From the human T2T-CHM13v2.0 reference genome, Homo sapiens, in the NCBI RefSeq assembly GCF_009914755.1, contig NC_060947.1: a DNA stretch of 64,000 nt; one strand, given 5' to 3'. Made by a program: the position numbers and the translations under genes. Shown in pieces: positions 44,801 through 52,788 of this stretch; the first letter of the stretch is position 1; every line of letters begins with the position of its first letter. The notes under the pieces are model-generated. The model ran no database searches. It had not been told where the DNA came from and worked only from the letters and a program-made list of their open reading frames with translations.

Positions 44801-46786
44801 ATTTTGGTAACTATATAAATACCTGGAAATTAAACTGTATACTTCTGAATGATCAGTGGGTCACTGAAGAAATTAAGAAGGAAATTGAAAATTGTTTTGA
44901 AACAAATGATAATGAAAACACAATATATCAAAACCTATGGTGTACAGCCAAAGCAGTACTAAGGGAAATTAATAGCTATAGGTGCCTACATCAAAAAAGA
45001 AGAAAAATCTCAAATAAACAATATAATGATAAAACATAAAGAACTAAAAGTAAGAGCAAACCATATCAAAATTAGTAGAAGGAAAAAATGTAGACCAAAG
45101 AAGAAATAAATATAATTGAAATGGAGAGAAGAATAGAAAATATGAATAAAACAAAAAATTGTTTTTGAAATGTTAAAAAAATTGACAAACCTTTGGTGAG
45201 GCTAAGAACTAAAGCAGAGAATATGCAAATAAATACAATCAAAAATGAAAAAAGAGACATTACAACAGATACTTCACAAATTCAATGGATTATTAGTGCC
45301 TACTATGAGCAACTATATGCCAATAAGTTGGAAAATCTAAAAGAAATGAACAGTTTCCTAGACACATACAACCTATAAAGATTGAACCAGAAGTAAATCT
45401 ATAACTTGAACAGATTTATAAGAAGGAATGAAATCAAAGCTGTAACAAAAAGTTTCCCAGTGAAGAAAAGCCTGGGAACAGACGGCTTTACTGCTGAATT
45501 TTTCCAAACATTTAAGTAAAAATTAAAAACTAATACTAATCCTACTCGAACTGTTTGGAAAAATAGAGGAGGAAATATTTCCAAATCTCTTCTATGGGAC
45601 CAGTTTTACTCTGATACCAAAACCAGAAAAAGACACATCAGAAAAAAGAAAACTATAGGCTAATATTACTTATGAATATTGATGCAAAGATCCTCAACAA
45701 ATACTAGCAAACTGAATTCAACAGCATATTATTAAGAGCAATCATTATGACCAAGTGAGATTTATCCCTGGTATGCAAGGATCATTCAACATATGCAAAC
45801 CAATTAATGTGATATATCATATCAACAGAATGAAGTATAAAAACCATATGATTATTTCAATTGATACTGAAAATACATTTGATAAAACTCAACATCCATT
45901 CATAATAATAAAAAAAAACCCTCAAAAACTGGAAGTGGAAGAAACATACCTCAACACAACAAAAGACATACATTACAGACTGACAGTTAGTATAATACTA
46001 AATAAAGAAAAACTGAAAGACTTTTTCCAAGATCTGGAACAAGCCAAGAATGCCCATCTTCATCACTGTTATTTAACATGGTACAGGAAGCCCTAGCTAG
46101 AACAATGAGTCAACAGAAAAAATAAAGGACATCCAAATTAGAATAAAAGAAGTCAAGTTATTTTTGTTTGCAGATAATATTATCTTATATATGAAAAACC
46201 CTGAAGATTTTACTAATAAACATTGGAAAAAATAAATTCAGTAAAGTTGCAGCATACAACATCAACATACAAAAATCTGTAGCATTTCTATATGCCAACA
46301 GTGAACAATCTAAAAACAATTTAAAAAGTAATTCCGTTTACAATAGCCATACATAAAACTAAATACCCAGAAATTAAGCAAAGTAGTGAAAGATTGCTAT
46401 AATGAAAAGTATAAAACACTGATAAGAGAAATTGAAGAGGACAGAAAAAATAAAAAAATTCTATGTTCATGGATAGAAAGAATTAATATTGTTAAAATGT
46501 CCACACTTCCCAAAGCAATCTACAGATTCAATGCATTTTCTATCCAAATATTGCAGTTGCTTCTTCTTTTTTTTTTTTTTTATTATACTCTAAGTTTTAG
46601 GGTACATGTGCACATTGTGCAGGTTGGTTACATATGTATACATGTGCCATGCTGGTGCGCTGCACCCACTAATGTGTCATCTAGCATTAGGTATATCTCC
46701 CAATGCTATCCCTCCCCCCTCCCCCGACCCCACCACAGTCCCCAGAGTGTGATATTCCCCTTCCTGTGTCCATGTGATCTCATTGT

Positions 46787-49700
46787 TCAATTCCCACCTA
46801 TGAGTGAGAATATGCGGTGTTTGGTTTTTTGTTCTTGCGATAGTTTACTGAGAATGATGGTTTCCAATTTCATCCATGTCCCTACAAAGGATATGAACTC
46901 ATCATTTTTTATGGCTGCATAGTATTCCATGGTGTATATGTGCCACATTTTCTTAATCCAGTCTATCATTGTTGGACATTTGGGTTGGTTCCAAGTCTTT
47001 GCTATTGTGAATAGTGCCGCAATAAACATACGTGTGCATGTGTCTTTATAGCAGCATGATTTATAGTCCTTTGGGTATATACCCAGTAATGGGATGGCTG
47101 GGTCAAATGGTATTTCTAGTTCTAGATCCCTGAGGAATCGCCACACTGACTTCCACAATGGTTGAACTAGTTTACAGTCCCACCAACAGTGTAAAAGTGT
47201 TCCTATTTCTCCACATCCTCTCCAGCACCTGTTGTTTCCTGACTTTTTAATGATTGCCATTCTAACTGGTGTGAGATGATATCTCATAGTGGTTTTGATT
47301 TGCATTTCTCTGATGGCCAGTGATGATGAGCATTTCTTCATGTGTTTTTTGGCTGCATAAATGTCTTCTTTTGAGAAGTGTCTGTTCATGTCCTTCGTCC
47401 ACTTTTTGATGGGGTTGTTTGTTTTTTTCTTGTAAATTTGTTTGAGTTCATTGTAGATTCTGGATATTAGCCCTTTGTCAGATGAGTAGGTTGCGAAAAT
47501 TTTCTCCCATGTTGTAGGTTGCCTGTTCACTCTGATGGTAGTTTCTTTTGCTGTGCAGAAGCTCTTTAGTTTAATTAGATCCCATTTGTCAATTTTGGCT
47601 TTTGTTGCCATTGCTTTTGGTGTTTTGGACATGAAGTCCTTGCCCACGCCTATGTCCTGAATGGTAATGCCTAGGTTTTCTTCTAGGGTTTTTATGGTTT
47701 TAGGTCTAACGTTTAAGTCTTTAATCCATCTTGAATTGATTTTTGTATAAGGTGTAAGGAAGGGATCCAGTTTCAGCTTTCTACATATGGCTAGCCAGTT
47801 TTCCCAGCACCATTTATTAAATAGGGAATCCTTTCCCCATTGCTTGTTTTTGTCAGGTTTGTCAAAGATCAGATAGTTGTAGATATGCGGCATTATTTCT
47901 GAGGGCTCTGTTCTGTTCCATTGATCTATATCTCTGTTTTGGTACCAGTACCATGCTGTTTTGGTTACTGTAGCCTTGTAGTATAGTTTGAAGTCAGGTA
48001 GTGTGATGCCTCCAGCTTTGTTCTTTTGGCTTAGGATTGACTTGGCAATGCGGGCTCTTTTTTGGTTCCATATGAACTTTAAAGTAGTTTTTTCCAATTC
48101 TGTGAAGAAAGTCATTGGTAGCTTGATGGGGATGGCATTGAATCTGTAAATTACCTTGGGCAGTATGGCCATTTTCACGATATTGATTCTTCCTACCCAT
48201 GAGCATGGAATGTTCTTCCATTTGTTTGTGTCCTCTTTTATTTCCTTGAGCAGTGGTTTGTAGTTCTCCTTGAAGAGGTCCTTCACATCTCTTGTAAGTT
48301 GGATTCCTAGATATTTTATTCTCTTTGAAGCAATTGTGAATGGGAGTTCACCCATGATTTGGCTCTCTGTTTGTCTGTTGTTGGTGTATAAGAATGCTTG
48401 TGATTTTTGTACATTGATTTTGTATCCTGAGACTTTGCTGAAGTTGCTTATCAGCTTAAGGAGATTTTGGGCTGAGACGATGGGGTTTTCTAGATAAACA
48501 ATCATGTCGTCTGCAAACAGGGACAATTTGACTTCCTCTTTTCCTAATTGAATACCCTTTATTTCCTTCTCCTGCCTGATTGCCCTGGCCAGAACTTCCA
48601 ACACTATGTTGAATAGGAGTGGTGAGAGAGGGCATCCCTGTCTTGTGCCAGTTTTCAAAGGGAATGCTTCCAGTTTTTGCCCATTCAGTATGATATTGGC
48701 TGTGGGTTTGTCATAGATAGCTCTTATTATTTTGAAATACGTCCCATCAATACCTAATTTATTGAGAGTTTTTAGCATGAAGGGTTGTTGAATTTTGTCA
48801 AAGGCTTTTTCTGCATCTATTGAGATAATCATGTGGTTTTTGTCTTTGGCTCTGTGTATATGCTGGATTACATTTATTGATTTGCGTATATTGAACCAGC
48901 CTTGCATCCCAGGGATGAAGCCCACTTGATCATGGTGGATAAGCTTTTTGATGTGCTGCTGGATTCGGTTTGCCCGTATTTTATTGAGGATTTTTGTATC
49001 AATGTTCATCAAGGATATTGGTCTAAAATTCTCTTTTTTGGTTGTGTCTCTGCCCGGCTTTGGTATCAGAATGATGCTGGCCTCATAAAATGAGTTAGGG
49101 AGGATTCCCTCTTTTTCTATTGATTGGAATAGTTTCAGAAGGAATGGTACCAGTTCCTCCTTGTACCTCTGGTAGAATTCGGCTGTGAATCCATCTGGTC
49201 CTGGACTCTTTTTGGTTGGTAAACTATTGATTATTGCCACAATTTCAGAGCCTGTTATTGGTCTATTCAGAGATTCAACTTCTTCCTGGTTTAGTCTTGG
49301 GAGAGTGTATGTGTCGAGGAATGTATCCATTTCTTCTAGATTTTCTAGTTTATTTGCGTAGAGGTGTTTGTAGTATTCTCTGATGGTAGTTTGTATTTCT
49401 GTGGGATCGGTGGTGCTATCCCCTTTATCATTTTTTATTGTGTCTGTTTGGTTCTTCTCTCTTTTTTTCTTTATTAGTCTTGCTAGTGGTCTATCAATTT
49501 TGTTGATCCTTTCAAAAAACCAGCTCCTGGATTCATTGATTTTTTGAAGGGTTTTTTGTGTCTCTATTTCCTTCAGTTCTGCTCTGATTTTAGTTATTTC
49601 TTGCCTTCTGCTAGCTTTTGAATGTGTTTGCTCTATCTTTTCTAGTTCTTTTAATTGTGATGTTAGGGTGTCAATTTTGGATCTTTCCTGCTTTCTCTTG

Positions 49701-50614
49701 TAGGCATTTAGTGCTATAAATTTCCCTCTACACACTGCTTTGAATGTGTCCCAGAGATTCTGGTATGTGGTGTCTTTGTTCTCGTTGGTTTCAAAGAACA
49801 TCTTTATTTCTGCCTTCATTTCGTTATGTACCCAGTAGTCATTCAGGAGCAGGTTGTTCAGTTTCCATGTAGTTGAGCGGCTTTGAGTGAGATTCTTAAT
49901 CCTGAGTTCTAGTTTGATTGCACTGTGGTCTGAGAGATAGTTTGTTATAATTTCTGTTCTTTTACATTTGCTGAGGAGAGCTTTACTTCCAAGTATGTGG
50001 TCAATTTTGGAATAGGTGTGGTGTGGTGCTGAAAAAAATGTATGTTCTGTTGATTTGGGGTGGAGAGTTCTGTAGATGTCTATTAGGTCTGCTTGGTGCA
50101 GAGCTGAGTTCAATTCCTGGGTATCCTTGTTGACTTTCTGTCTCGTTGATCTGTCTAATGTTGACAGTGGGGTGTTAAAGTCCCCCATTATTAATGTGTG
50201 GGAGTCTAAGTCTCTTTGTAGGTCACTGAGGACTTGCTTTATGAATCTGGGTGCTCCTGTATTGGGTGCATAAATATTTAGGATAATTAGCTCCTCTTGT
50301 TGAATTGATCCCTTTACCATTATGTAATGGCCTTCTTTGTCTCTTTTGATCTTTGTTGGTTTAAAGTCTGTTTTATCAGAGACTAGGATTGCAACCCCTG
50401 CCTTTTTTTGTTTTCCATTGGCTTGGTAGATCTTCCTCCATCCTTTTATTTTGAGCCTATGTGTGTCTCTGCATGTGAGATGGGTTTCCTGAATACAGCA
50501 CACTGATGGGTCTTGACTCTTTATCCAACTTGCCAGTCTGTGTCTTTTAATTGCAGAATTTAGTCCATTTATATTTAAAGTTAATTTTGTTATGTGTGAA
50601 TTTGATCCTGTCAT
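46787..50614 (-). CDS. LINE-1 ORF2p (endonuclease/reverse transcriptase), uninterrupted 1275 aa
   Basis: Full-length ORF with EN motifs (TLN, IQETH, GDFN, SKIDH, SDH), RT FADD and the C-terminal CCHC segment. Confidence 0.96.
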
Positions 50615-52601: not shown

Positions 52602-52737
52602 ATCATCACAAGGTCCCACAACAGGCTGTCTGCAAGCTGAGGAGCAAGGAGAGCCAGTCCAAGTCCCAAAACTGAAGAACTTGGAGTTCGACTTTCGAGG
52701 GCAGGAAGCATCCAGCAGGGGAAAAAGATGTAGGCTC
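52602..52737 (-). mobile_element. MLT2A1 (HERV-L LTR) 135-bp exon carried as a 5' transduction
   Basis: The minus strand reads AGCCTACATCTTTTTCCCCTGCTGGATGCTTCCTGCCCTCG...GGGACCTTGTGATGAT, an MLT2A1 R-region match. It lies inside TSD GCAGTTG(C/T)TTCT at 46553-46564 and 52738-52749. Confidence 0.88.
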
Positions 52738-52788
52738 GCAGTTGTTTCTAAGTGCAAAAACATCAATTACTTTTGCACCAACCTAATA
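52738..52788. mobile_element. MADE1 (Hsmar1-derived MITE) remnant: spacer plus one TIR
   Basis: gcaaaaacatcaattacttttgcaccaacctaa followed by TA matches the MADE1 terminal inverted repeat. Most of the other TIR is absent. Confidence 0.85.

What the first reader, a model, noticed from the sequence alone, without database searches (positions are those of the whole stretch)
46553..52749. L1HS copied from a capped, spliced MLT2A1 (HERV-L LTR)-L1 chimeric mRNA
Seen in sequence: the 12-bp TSD GCAGTTG(C/T)TTCT (46553-46564 and 52738-52749, nick site TTCT/AA) encloses the full L1HS plus 136 extra bp at its 5' end. In L1 sense these read G + AGCCTACATC...GGGACCTTGTGATGAT, joined directly to GAGGAGGAGCCAAGATGG. 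From recalled consensus: the segment is MLT2A1, and it stops exactly where the LTR continues with GTGAGT, a canonical 5' splice site. It starts at a C|A initiator-like position, and the first base (52737) is G where the LTR has C and the target has T, the usual trace of reverse-transcribed m7G cap. MLT2A1 LTRs are known DUX4-responsive promoters in cleavage-stage embryos. Inference: an upstream MLT2A1 LTR drove a transcript spliced onto the first bases of a source L1HS, bypassing the L1 promoter, and that RNA retrotransposed heritably. This would be a fossil of an ERV-LTR-driven L1 mobilisation route in the early embryo or germline.
Basis: partly seen in the sequence, partly recalled or inferred. 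Interest (0 to 1): 0.92.

Follow-up and report, generated by a model that had tools for sequence, protein, structure and literature searches.

The report
L1 carrying a spliced HERV-L LTR exon
An old, now-dead full-length L1 on the X chromosome carries at its front end the first exon of one particular HERV-L (MLT2A1) LTR from chromosome 3, which shows that an LTR-started, spliced L1 RNA once retrotransposed heritably; it is a clear new example of a route already described.

Summary
A minus-strand full-length L1 lies at 46582-52601, with a poly(A) tail and a 12-bp target-site duplication (11 of 12 identical). The duplication also encloses 136 extra bases at the L1 5' end.

Of these, 135 match one LTR at chr3:5,969,927-5,970,061 (T2T) at 133 of 135. 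The next best copy matches at 125 of 132. The window piece shares five rare variants with the chr3 copy. In the chr3 LTR the matched stretch is followed at once by GTAAGT. The 136th base is a G that neither the donor nor the target encodes.

By coordinates, the chr3 LTR is MLT2A1 no. 604 of Hashimoto et al. 2021, listed as active in 4-/8-cell embryos. That paper places MLT2A1 start sites at consensus 205-215 and splice donors near 350, which fits a 135-nt first exon.

No young L1 lies on the right strand within 140 kb downstream of the chr3 LTR, and the junction is unique in the genome. Cis-splicing is therefore inferred, not shown.

The mechanism is in print: a review scheme (2018) and 17 catalogued cases (Law & Burns 2026). 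This locus is not among those 17. Verdict: a real feature, and a new member of a known kind.

The parts
46553..46564 (.). Target-site duplication, copy next to the poly(A) end (GCAGTTGCTTCT)
   Evidence: 11 of 12 identical to 52738-52749; best repeat shared by the two flanks
46565..46581 (-). Poly(A) tail of the insertion (TC + 15 T on the + strand)
46582..52601 (-). Full-length L1 body, 6020 nt, with ACA in the 3'UTR; about 99% identical to many L1 copies
46787..50614 (-). L1 ORF2, open, 1275 aa
50678..51694 (-). L1 ORF1, in frame, with one internal stop at codon 150 (51245-51247)
51695..52601 (-). L1 5'UTR, complete to within 1-2 bases of the usual start; overlaps the RefSeq 'enhancer' 51689-52312
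   Evidence: hub annotation
52602..52736 (-). 135-nt leader: first exon of the MLT2A1 LTR at T2T chr3:5,969,927-5,970,061 (minus)
52737..52737 (-). One extra base (G in L1 sense), templated neither by the donor LTR nor by the target
52738..52749 (.). Target-site duplication, copy at the 5' end (GCAGTTGTTTCT)

Best explanation
A transcript started in the R region of one MLT2A1 (HERV-L) LTR on chr3. That LTR lies at T2T 5,969,872-5,970,284, minus strand, and corresponds to hg38 chr3:5,976,138-5,976,540. The LTR's own 5' splice site (…GATGAT|GTAAGT) was joined in RNA to the first bases of a full-length L1. The acceptor was most likely an AG made of the last flank base plus the L1's first G, in an L1 lying downstream in the same transcription unit. 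That L1 allele has since been lost or was never fixed. The chimeric, polyadenylated RNA was copied into chrX by ordinary L1 target-primed reverse transcription: nick at TTCT/AA, a 12-bp duplication, and one extra G at the 5' end as often seen on cap-complete cDNAs.

Shown here: the insertion anatomy, the donor LTR, the end at the splice donor, and the donor's embryonic activity. Inferred: splicing in cis, the start site, the cap origin of the G, and the cell type (cleavage-stage embryo or germ line). The copy did not take the LTR promoter with it. It is now dead (stop in ORF1).
For: **One insertion event.** The duplication encloses the leader, the L1 and the tail.

**Donor.**
- The leader matches chr3 at 133 of 135; 28 other copies match at 91.1-94.7%.
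- The leader and the chr3 copy share five variants. Of the 28 other copies, 1, 1, 3, 2 and 0 carry them.
- At both mismatches the chr3 copy keeps the family state.

**Splice donor.** The chr3 LTR reads GTAAGT directly after the last copied base. GT stands there in 20 of 29 copies, and the start-to-GT distance is 135 nt in 26 of 29.

**Published MLT2A1 first exon.** Start sites lie at consensus 205-215, GT donors near 350, and all nine cloned embryo transcripts were spliced within the LTR (passages of PMC8559712).

**Donor activity.** Table S1 of that paper lists hg38 chr3:5,976,138-5,976,540 (minus, no. 604) as expressed in 18 four-/eight-cell cells, 5.09 TPM, 'active: Yes', two DUX4 motifs. 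I matched it to the T2T copy by length (402 vs 403-413 bp, by where the frayed 3' end is put), by strand, and by spacing to the neighbouring MLT2A2 (18,926 vs about 18,940 bp).

**Family.** Four copies of this LTR have integrase-core and dUTPase ORF pieces just upstream. That integrase followed by dUTPase is the ERV-L layout is recalled.

**An acceptor of this kind exists.** Of 74 L1 copies starting with the same 62 nt, 13 have AG directly before it, the A coming from the flank.

**Same pattern in print.** Exons end at splice donors, the L1 starts within its first 10 bp, untemplated G occurs, and the source L1 is often not found.
Against: - No L1 above 97% identity lies on the minus strand in the 140 kb downstream of the chr3 LTR.
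- No exact copy of the 51-nt L1 5' end lies on the chr3 minus strand below 5.97 Mb (exact matches only).
- No sibling with this junction exists in the genome (1 of 1 hits is the locus itself, at up to 3 mismatches).
- No acceptor, branch point or pyrimidine tract can be inspected.
- The leader starts at LTR position about 221. That is about 49 nt after the family's TATA-like box (itself mutated in the chr3 copy), and at or beyond the downstream edge of the published start window. A cDNA about 10-16 nt short of the cap, plus one untemplated G, is not excluded.
- The junction is ambiguous by one base, because a G follows on both partners.
- Ape or empty human alleles could not be examined.
Confidence: 0.7

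Rival explanations
1. Trans-splicing. The MLT2A1 exon, from a chr3 transcript, was spliced to a separate read-through RNA holding a full-length L1 from another chromosome. The product then retrotransposed.
For: No source L1 is found in cis. Law & Burns raise the same option for their cases without a cis source. Thirteen L1 loci elsewhere have the needed AG before the same L1 start.
Against: Trans-splicing is rare in human cells (general knowledge). The L1 RNA would still need upstream flank sequence carrying a branch point and an AG. A cis source that was lost explains the data equally well: the element has 49 private differences, which gives time for an unfixed source allele to disappear.
Confidence: 0.1
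2. Template switch during reverse transcription. L1 reverse transcriptase reached the 5' end of an ordinary L1 RNA, then jumped to an RNA from the chr3 LTR and copied it to its 5' end.
For: Chimeras made by template switching, such as U6-L1, are known (reference list seen). The one-base G overlap at the junction would suit a jump.
Against: The jump would have to land exactly on the last base before the GT donor, about 1 position in 400 of the LTR, or use a free 5'-exon splicing intermediate. Known switch chimeras mostly carry 5'-truncated L1. Law & Burns disfavour this reading where a splice junction is present.
Confidence: 0.1
3. No RNA join. A source L1 had inserted in the chr3 LTR itself, right after …GATGAT, on a haplotype absent here. 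Read-through from the LTR start then gave a plain unspliced 5' transduction.
For: It cannot be excluded without other haplotypes.
Against: The CHM13 allele of the LTR is uninterrupted at that point. The insertion point would coincide with the family's splice donor by chance. The 15 bases before that point do not resemble an A-rich L1 target.
Confidence: 0.03
4. Two unrelated events. An old MLT2A1 fragment already lay at the chrX site, and the L1 landed next to it.
For: None beyond adjacency.
Against: The duplication encloses both parts. The fragment is 98.5% identical to one chr3 copy, whereas family copies are 91-95% alike. It starts and ends at exon limits.
Confidence: 0.01

Closest known systems
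Spliced 5' transductions on near full-length L1 (Law & Burns 2026, Cell Genomics, PMC13174262; scheme in Faulkner & Billon 2018, PMC6035798, Fig. 1b legend)
   Same: The duplication encloses exon and L1. The exon is in sense orientation and begins at or near a transcript start. It ends at a GT donor. The L1 starts within its first 10 bases. There are untemplated 5' bases. The nick motif TT/AGAA is the same as in two of their rows. The source L1 is often not found.
   Different: Here the exon is itself a repeat, an ERV-L LTR exon, not a unique gene or lncRNA exon. The donor copy has a narrow, documented 4-/8-cell activity. The locus is not among their 17: I read all rows of Table S5, and no TSD or coordinate matches. 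'MLT2' has 0 hits in the four readable tables.
MLT2A1-driven chimeric RNAs of human 4-/8-cell embryos (Hashimoto 2021, PMC8559712; review PMC13690279)
   Same: Same promoter family, same first exon limits, and a GT donor inside the LTR. LINE-1 is named as a frequent 3' partner of such RNAs.
   Different: Those are RNAs. This is a genomic, inherited DNA copy of one, with a whole L1 as the 3' partner.
SVA_F1 / MAST2 exon capture by SVA (recalled: Damert 2009, Hancks 2009, Bantysh & Buzdin 2009; not read here)
   Same: An upstream exon is spliced onto the 5' end of a non-LTR retrotransposon and carried along.
   Different: In SVA_F1 the captured exon brought promoter activity and founded a subfamily. 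Here the piece lies downstream of the start site, carries no LTR promoter, and no offspring exist.
SpIREs (Larson 2018, PMC5860796)
   Same: Splicing of L1-containing RNA, fixed in DNA by retrotransposition.
   Different: SpIREs lose internal 5'UTR or ORF1 sequence. Here the L1 5'UTR is whole, and the intron lay upstream of the L1.
U6-L1 and similar template-switch chimeras (Buzdin 2002; reference seen)
   Same: A foreign RNA is fused 5' of L1 within one duplication.
   Different: Those carry small RNAs joined to randomly truncated L1. Here a Pol II first exon ends at its splice donor and is joined to a full-length L1.

Membership tests
L1 insertion by target-primed reverse transcription | Target-site duplication flanking the whole insert | tested here: met
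   12 bp, 11 of 12 identical, abutting both ends
L1 insertion by target-primed reverse transcription | Poly(A) tail and a T-rich/AA nick site | tested here: met
   15 A plus GA; nick TTCT/AA. The consensus motif is recalled; the form TT/AGAA also occurs in Table S5 rows.
Spliced 5' transduction of L1 | The 5' piece is a recent copy of a transcribed exon elsewhere, in sense orientation | tested here: met
   133 of 135 to the chr3 LTR, same sense as the L1. The donor is listed as expressed in embryos.
Spliced 5' transduction of L1 | The piece ends exactly at a GT splice donor in the donor locus | tested here: met
   …GATGAT|GTAAGT; published donor near consensus position 350
Spliced 5' transduction of L1 | The piece begins at the donor's transcription start | tested here: inconclusive
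   LTR position about 221 against the published 205-215. Consensus coordinates could not be calibrated and the paper's Fig. 1C is not held.
Spliced 5' transduction of L1 | A source L1 with an AG acceptor downstream of the donor, on the same strand | tested here: not met
   None in 140 kb. No exact 51-mer on the chr3 minus strand below 5.97 Mb. Only this one genome was examined.
MLT2A1 (HERV-L LTR) | Annotated as MLT2A1 by a RepeatMasker-based list | tested here: met
   Table S1 no. 604, matched by length, strand and spacing to its neighbour
MLT2A1 (HERV-L LTR) | The LTR flanks ERV-L internal sequence (integrase followed by dUTPase) | tested here: met
   4 of 29 copies share about 1 kb upstream. 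In 2 of 3 ORF pieces scanned, dUTPase scores E 1e-10; in 1 of 3, the integrase core scores E 2e-6, below Pfam's cut-off.
L1HS-Ta | ACA triplet in the 3'UTR (diagnostic recalled) | tested here: met
   …GATGACACATTAG…
L1HS-Ta | Human-specific insertion | not testable with these tools
   No ape genome or pangenome is held
Retrotransposition-competent L1 | Both ORFs open | tested here: not met
   ORF2 is open (1275 aa). ORF1 has a stop at codon 150.
Template-switch chimera (U6-L1 type) | Small-RNA 5' partner and a 5'-truncated L1 | tested here: not met
   The partner is a Pol II LTR exon and the L1 is full length
SpIRE | Internal L1 splice deletion | tested here: not met
   The 5'UTR is continuous at 907 nt. 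In the three-way alignment the only window-private indels are two single extra bases.

The most novel reading that the evidence does not exclude
The locus is a dated fossil of L1 mobilisation driven by a genome-activation (DUX4-responsive) HERV-L LTR in the cleavage-stage embryo of the human lineage. If so, ERV-L promoters give L1 copies a way to be expressed, and inherited, in the short window when MLT2A1 fires, independently of the state of the L1's own promoter. The many MLT2A1-LINE1 RNAs now seen at the 8-cell stage would then include retrotransposition-competent ones.
Probability: 0.3. Interest if true: 0.6.

Novelty: new member of a known kind. Interest (0 to 1): 0.42.

Why it matters
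The locus ties three things together in one piece of DNA. One is a named LTR copy with measured 4-/8-cell activity. The second is that LTR's known first exon and splice donor. The third is a heritable L1 insertion. It therefore gives a concrete, checkable case for when and from which promoter an L1 RNA that reached the germ line was made.

It also adds a repeat-derived exon to a catalogue that so far lists gene and lncRNA exons. Pipelines that treat adjacent repeats as separate insertions could miss this class.

It does not reveal a new mechanism. The copy carries no LTR promoter, has no offspring, and is inactive.

Tried and rejected
1. **Older chr3 L1 as source.** A full-length L1 lies on the right strand 31.5 kb downstream of the chr3 LTR (T2T 5,933,562-5,938,422). 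Rejected: 76.6-89.4% identity. A 96.1% piece at 5,905,761-5,907,662 is a 1.9-kb 3' fragment.
2. **Locus L020 as start-site support.** Its LTR similarity seems to begin at AGCCTAC, which might have marked a retrocopy. Rejected: it runs on to the natural LTR end, so it is a truncated LTR.
3. **Siblings.** A junction search at up to 3 mismatches found only the locus itself.
4. **Close L1 relative as source or sibling.** The best 24 other L1 copies all score alike, at about 99%. The two best differ from the window element at 62 and 63 sites.
5. **Wider scans of chr3.**
A 40-kb request passed.
As a result, L1 starts carrying 1-2 mismatches on chr3 beyond 140 kb remain unseen. One search listed only exact matches that far.
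6. **Splice acceptors of LTR no. 604.** The readable supplement of PMC8559712 holds no acceptor table.
8. **Literature.** No search turned up this locus or a retrotransposed MLT2A1-exon-L1. One search used a poorly formed term. Primes cannot be searched, so '5' transduction' as a phrase was never matched. PDF supplements and the primary MLT2A1 chimeric-RNA paper (ref. 10 of PMC13690279) were not seen.

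
Full report
**What is in the window**

A full-length L1 lies on the minus strand at 46582-52601.
- Its tail is 15 A preceded by GA in sense. 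On the + strand this reads as TC plus 15 T at 46565-46581.
- The insert is flanked by GCAGTTGCTTCT (46553-46564) and GCAGTTGTTTCT (52738-52749).
- A script comparing the 66 bases left of the tail with the 76 bases around the 5' end found this 12-mer as the only repeat with at most one mismatch. No longer one exists.
- The nick site is TTCT/AA. In L1 sense this is TT/AGAA, the form given for two insertions in Table S5 of Law & Burns.
- ORF2 is open (1275 aa). ORF1 is in frame but has one stop at codon 150.
- The 3'UTR carries ACA. That this marks the Ta subfamily is recalled.

Between the L1 start (GAGGAGGAGCCAAGATGG in sense) and the duplication lie 136 bases, 52602-52737.

**Where the extra bases come from**

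I searched the window's own genome with the 136 bases. Forty places were scored out of 2661 first-look candidates.
- After the locus itself, the best hit is chr3:5,969,927-5,970,061, minus strand, covering bases 2-136 at 133 of 135.
- The next best is 125 of 132. The 28 other copies fetched lie at 91.1-94.7%.
- The window piece and the chr3 copy share five states that differ from the majority of those 28 copies. Only 1, 1, 3, 2 and 0 of the 28 carry them.
- At the two adjacent mismatches the chr3 copy has the family state, so the changes lie on the chrX side.

The piece is thus a recent copy of that one LTR. It is not an old resident fragment.

**The two ends of the piece**

In the chr3 LTR the last copied base is followed by GTAAGT.
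- Across 29 family copies, GT stands at that point in 20.
- The distance from AGCCTAC to that point is 135 nt in 26 of the 29.
- The base before AGCCTAC is C in the chr3 copy and in 27 of 29 copies. The window has G there in sense, and the target does not supply it either.

**What the LTR is**

- Four of the 29 copies share about 1 kb directly upstream.
- Unaltered ORF pieces from three of them were scanned against Pfam. Two of the three match dUTPase (E 1e-10). One of the three also matches the end of the integrase core (E 2e-6, below Pfam's cut-off).
- That integrase followed by dUTPase is the ERV-L layout is recalled.
- Table S1 of Hashimoto et al. 2021 (PMC8559712; I read parts of supplementary file 2) lists MLT2A1 no. 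604 at hg38 chr3:5,976,138-5,976,540, minus strand.
- The T2T copy spans 5,969,872/82-5,970,284, minus strand.
- Its distance to the next MLT2A-type LTR on the + strand is about 18,940 bp. The hg38 lists give 18,926 bp.

I take the two as the same element.

**What is published about that LTR**

From passages of the main text:
- 280 MLT2A1 copies count as active in 4-/8-cell embryos.
- Their start sites lie at consensus positions 205-215 of 444, in an AG-rich stretch downstream of a TATA box.
- Splice donors cluster near position 350 with canonical GT.
- All nine transcripts cloned from two elements were spliced within the LTR.

No. 604 is marked active: 18 cells, mean 5.09 TPM, two DUX4 motifs. 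Taking the 2416 elements named in a figure legend as the total, active copies are about 12% of the family.

A first exon of about 135-145 nt is what the paper implies, and 135 nt is what the window holds.

**A caveat on the start**

In my alignment of 29 copies, the modal positions are:
- TATA-like box: LTR position about 169
- AG-rich stretch: about 194-206
- AGCCTAC: about 221
- GT donor: about 356

If my coordinates run about 6 ahead of the consensus, as the donor position suggests, AGCCTAC falls at about 215. That is the edge of the published window. If they do not, the piece starts up to 16 nt downstream of it.

The chr3 copy also has a changed TATA-like box. The 5' end may therefore be a true start of this copy, or a cDNA slightly short of the cap. 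The extra G fits a cap-complete cDNA, and similar untemplated G, GGG and GGT are listed by Law & Burns. It proves nothing by itself.

**The missing partner**

- I read 140 kb downstream of the chr3 LTR (5,830,001-5,970,000).
- In the nearer 100 kb (5,870,001-5,970,000) the minus strand holds only an old full-length L1 (76.6-89.4% identity) and a 1.9-kb 3' fragment (96.1%).
- The further 40 kb (5,830,001-5,870,000) gave no hit.
- A 51-nt L1 5'-end pattern has 2414 matches at up to two mismatches. The 100 listed rows are all exact and run to chr3:58.97 Mb. Below 5.97 Mb on chr3 there are two such rows, both on the + strand.
- The exon-L1 junction occurs once in the genome at up to three mismatches.

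So neither a source nor a sibling is present here.

An acceptor of the needed kind is plausible. Seventy-four L1 copies, including this one, begin with the same 62 nt. In 13 of them AG stands directly before it, with the A belonging to the flank. Splicing to such an AG would remove only the L1's first G, which matches what is seen.

**Age**

- Against its two best relatives the element has 49 sites of its own. The relatives have 13 and 14.
- The 49 comprise 8 CpG transitions, 22 other transitions, 17 transversions and 2 one-base indels.
- In the ORFs, 12 changes are silent and 22 alter the protein. This is near what unconstrained decay gives.
- Some of the 49 will be lineage differences rather than decay.

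Even so, the copy or its source has drifted for long, on the order of several million years. That makes a still-segregating source L1 unlikely. It also fits the two changes in the leader and the one in the duplication.

**How it most likely arose**

- A transcript started in the LTR.
- The LTR's own splice donor was used.
- The donor was joined to an AG at the edge of a downstream L1.
- The chimeric RNA was inserted on chrX by target-primed reverse transcription.

I put this at 0.7. The rivals:
- Trans-splicing (0.1) needs a second read-through RNA.
- A template jump (0.1) must land on the one base before the GT.
- A source L1 inserted exactly at that base in the LTR (0.03) needs the same coincidence at DNA level.
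- A resident fragment (0.01) is contradicted by the 98.5% identity and by the duplication.

**Timing**

The donor's measured activity is in 4-/8-cell embryos. The same paper also reports MLT2A activity in the pineal gland. DUX4 expression in testis is recalled. A heritable insertion needs the early embryo or the germ line. I give the cleavage-stage reading about even odds within the main explanation.

**Comparison with what is known**

- The scheme 'upstream promoter, spliced mRNA, 5' transduction' is drawn in a 2018 review (PMC6035798, figure legend).
- Law & Burns 2026 (PMC13174262; I read the abstract, passages and the whole of Table S5) list 17 such insertions in hg38.
  - Six end exactly at splice donors.
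  - Most are near full-length L1.
  - Several start in the first 10 bp of the L1.
  - For the MAP3K13 and FHIT examples no source L1 was found.
- None of their 17 rows has this duplication or location. 'MLT2' has 0 hits in their four readable tables.
- A 2026 review reports that MLT2A1 forms chimeric RNAs with LINE-1 and Alu at genome activation (PMC13690279, passages). I did not see the primary paper.

The present locus is therefore a new member of a known kind. Its special feature is that the exon comes from an LTR copy with a documented embryonic window.

**What it does now**

Probably nothing of its own.
- The leader lies downstream of the LTR start site and brings no LTR promoter.
- The L1 5'UTR is complete, and RefSeq marks part of it as an enhancer (hub annotation).
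- ORF1 is broken.
- No offspring exist.

Noticed in passing
window 46460-46552 and 52750-52900: The target site lies in a short inverted-repeat-like piece (…CAATTACTTTTGCACCAACCTAAT) that looks like half of a MADE1-type MITE (name recalled). That piece is itself nested in an old L1 ORF2-like sequence, which continues on both sides.
   Followed up: no
window 51689-52312: The RefSeq 'enhancer' of the hub table lies wholly inside the L1 (5'UTR and first ORF1 codons), so it is an L1 5'UTR feature and not a locus-specific element.
   Followed up: no
window 52484-52711 (minus): A 75-aa ORF starts at an ATG inside the LTR leader and runs into the L1 5'UTR. It is an upstream ORF that the chimeric RNA would have carried.
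   Followed up: no
window 46582-52601: The L1 has 49 private differences against 13-14 in its two nearest relatives. That is a lot for an element with the ACA triplet. Either it is among the oldest of its subfamily, or its source had already decayed.
   Followed up: partly
L002 (T2T chr3:5,968,427-5,971,561): The donor LTR has an Alu with a long A tail directly upstream. Its TATA-like box is changed. After the TA-rich stretch it lacks the usual LTR end seen in other copies. Even so, it is listed as active in embryos.
   Followed up: partly
L035/L036 (T2T chr3:5,929,414-5,938,422): An old full-length minus-strand L1 (76-89% to the window L1) lies 31.5 kb downstream of the donor LTR. It is split by a + strand L1 of 93-94% identity.
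   Followed up: partly
L028 (T2T chr11:91,929,547-91,929,681): In this LTR copy the sequence after …GATCAT departs from the family (GAGCCAAGGAATG…), at the very point of the splice donor. It could be a deletion, an insertion or another exon junction.
   Followed up: no
L016, L023, L026, L027: Four copies of the LTR are 3' LTRs of ERV-L remnants. Broken integrase-dUTPase reading frames lie just upstream.
   Followed up: partly
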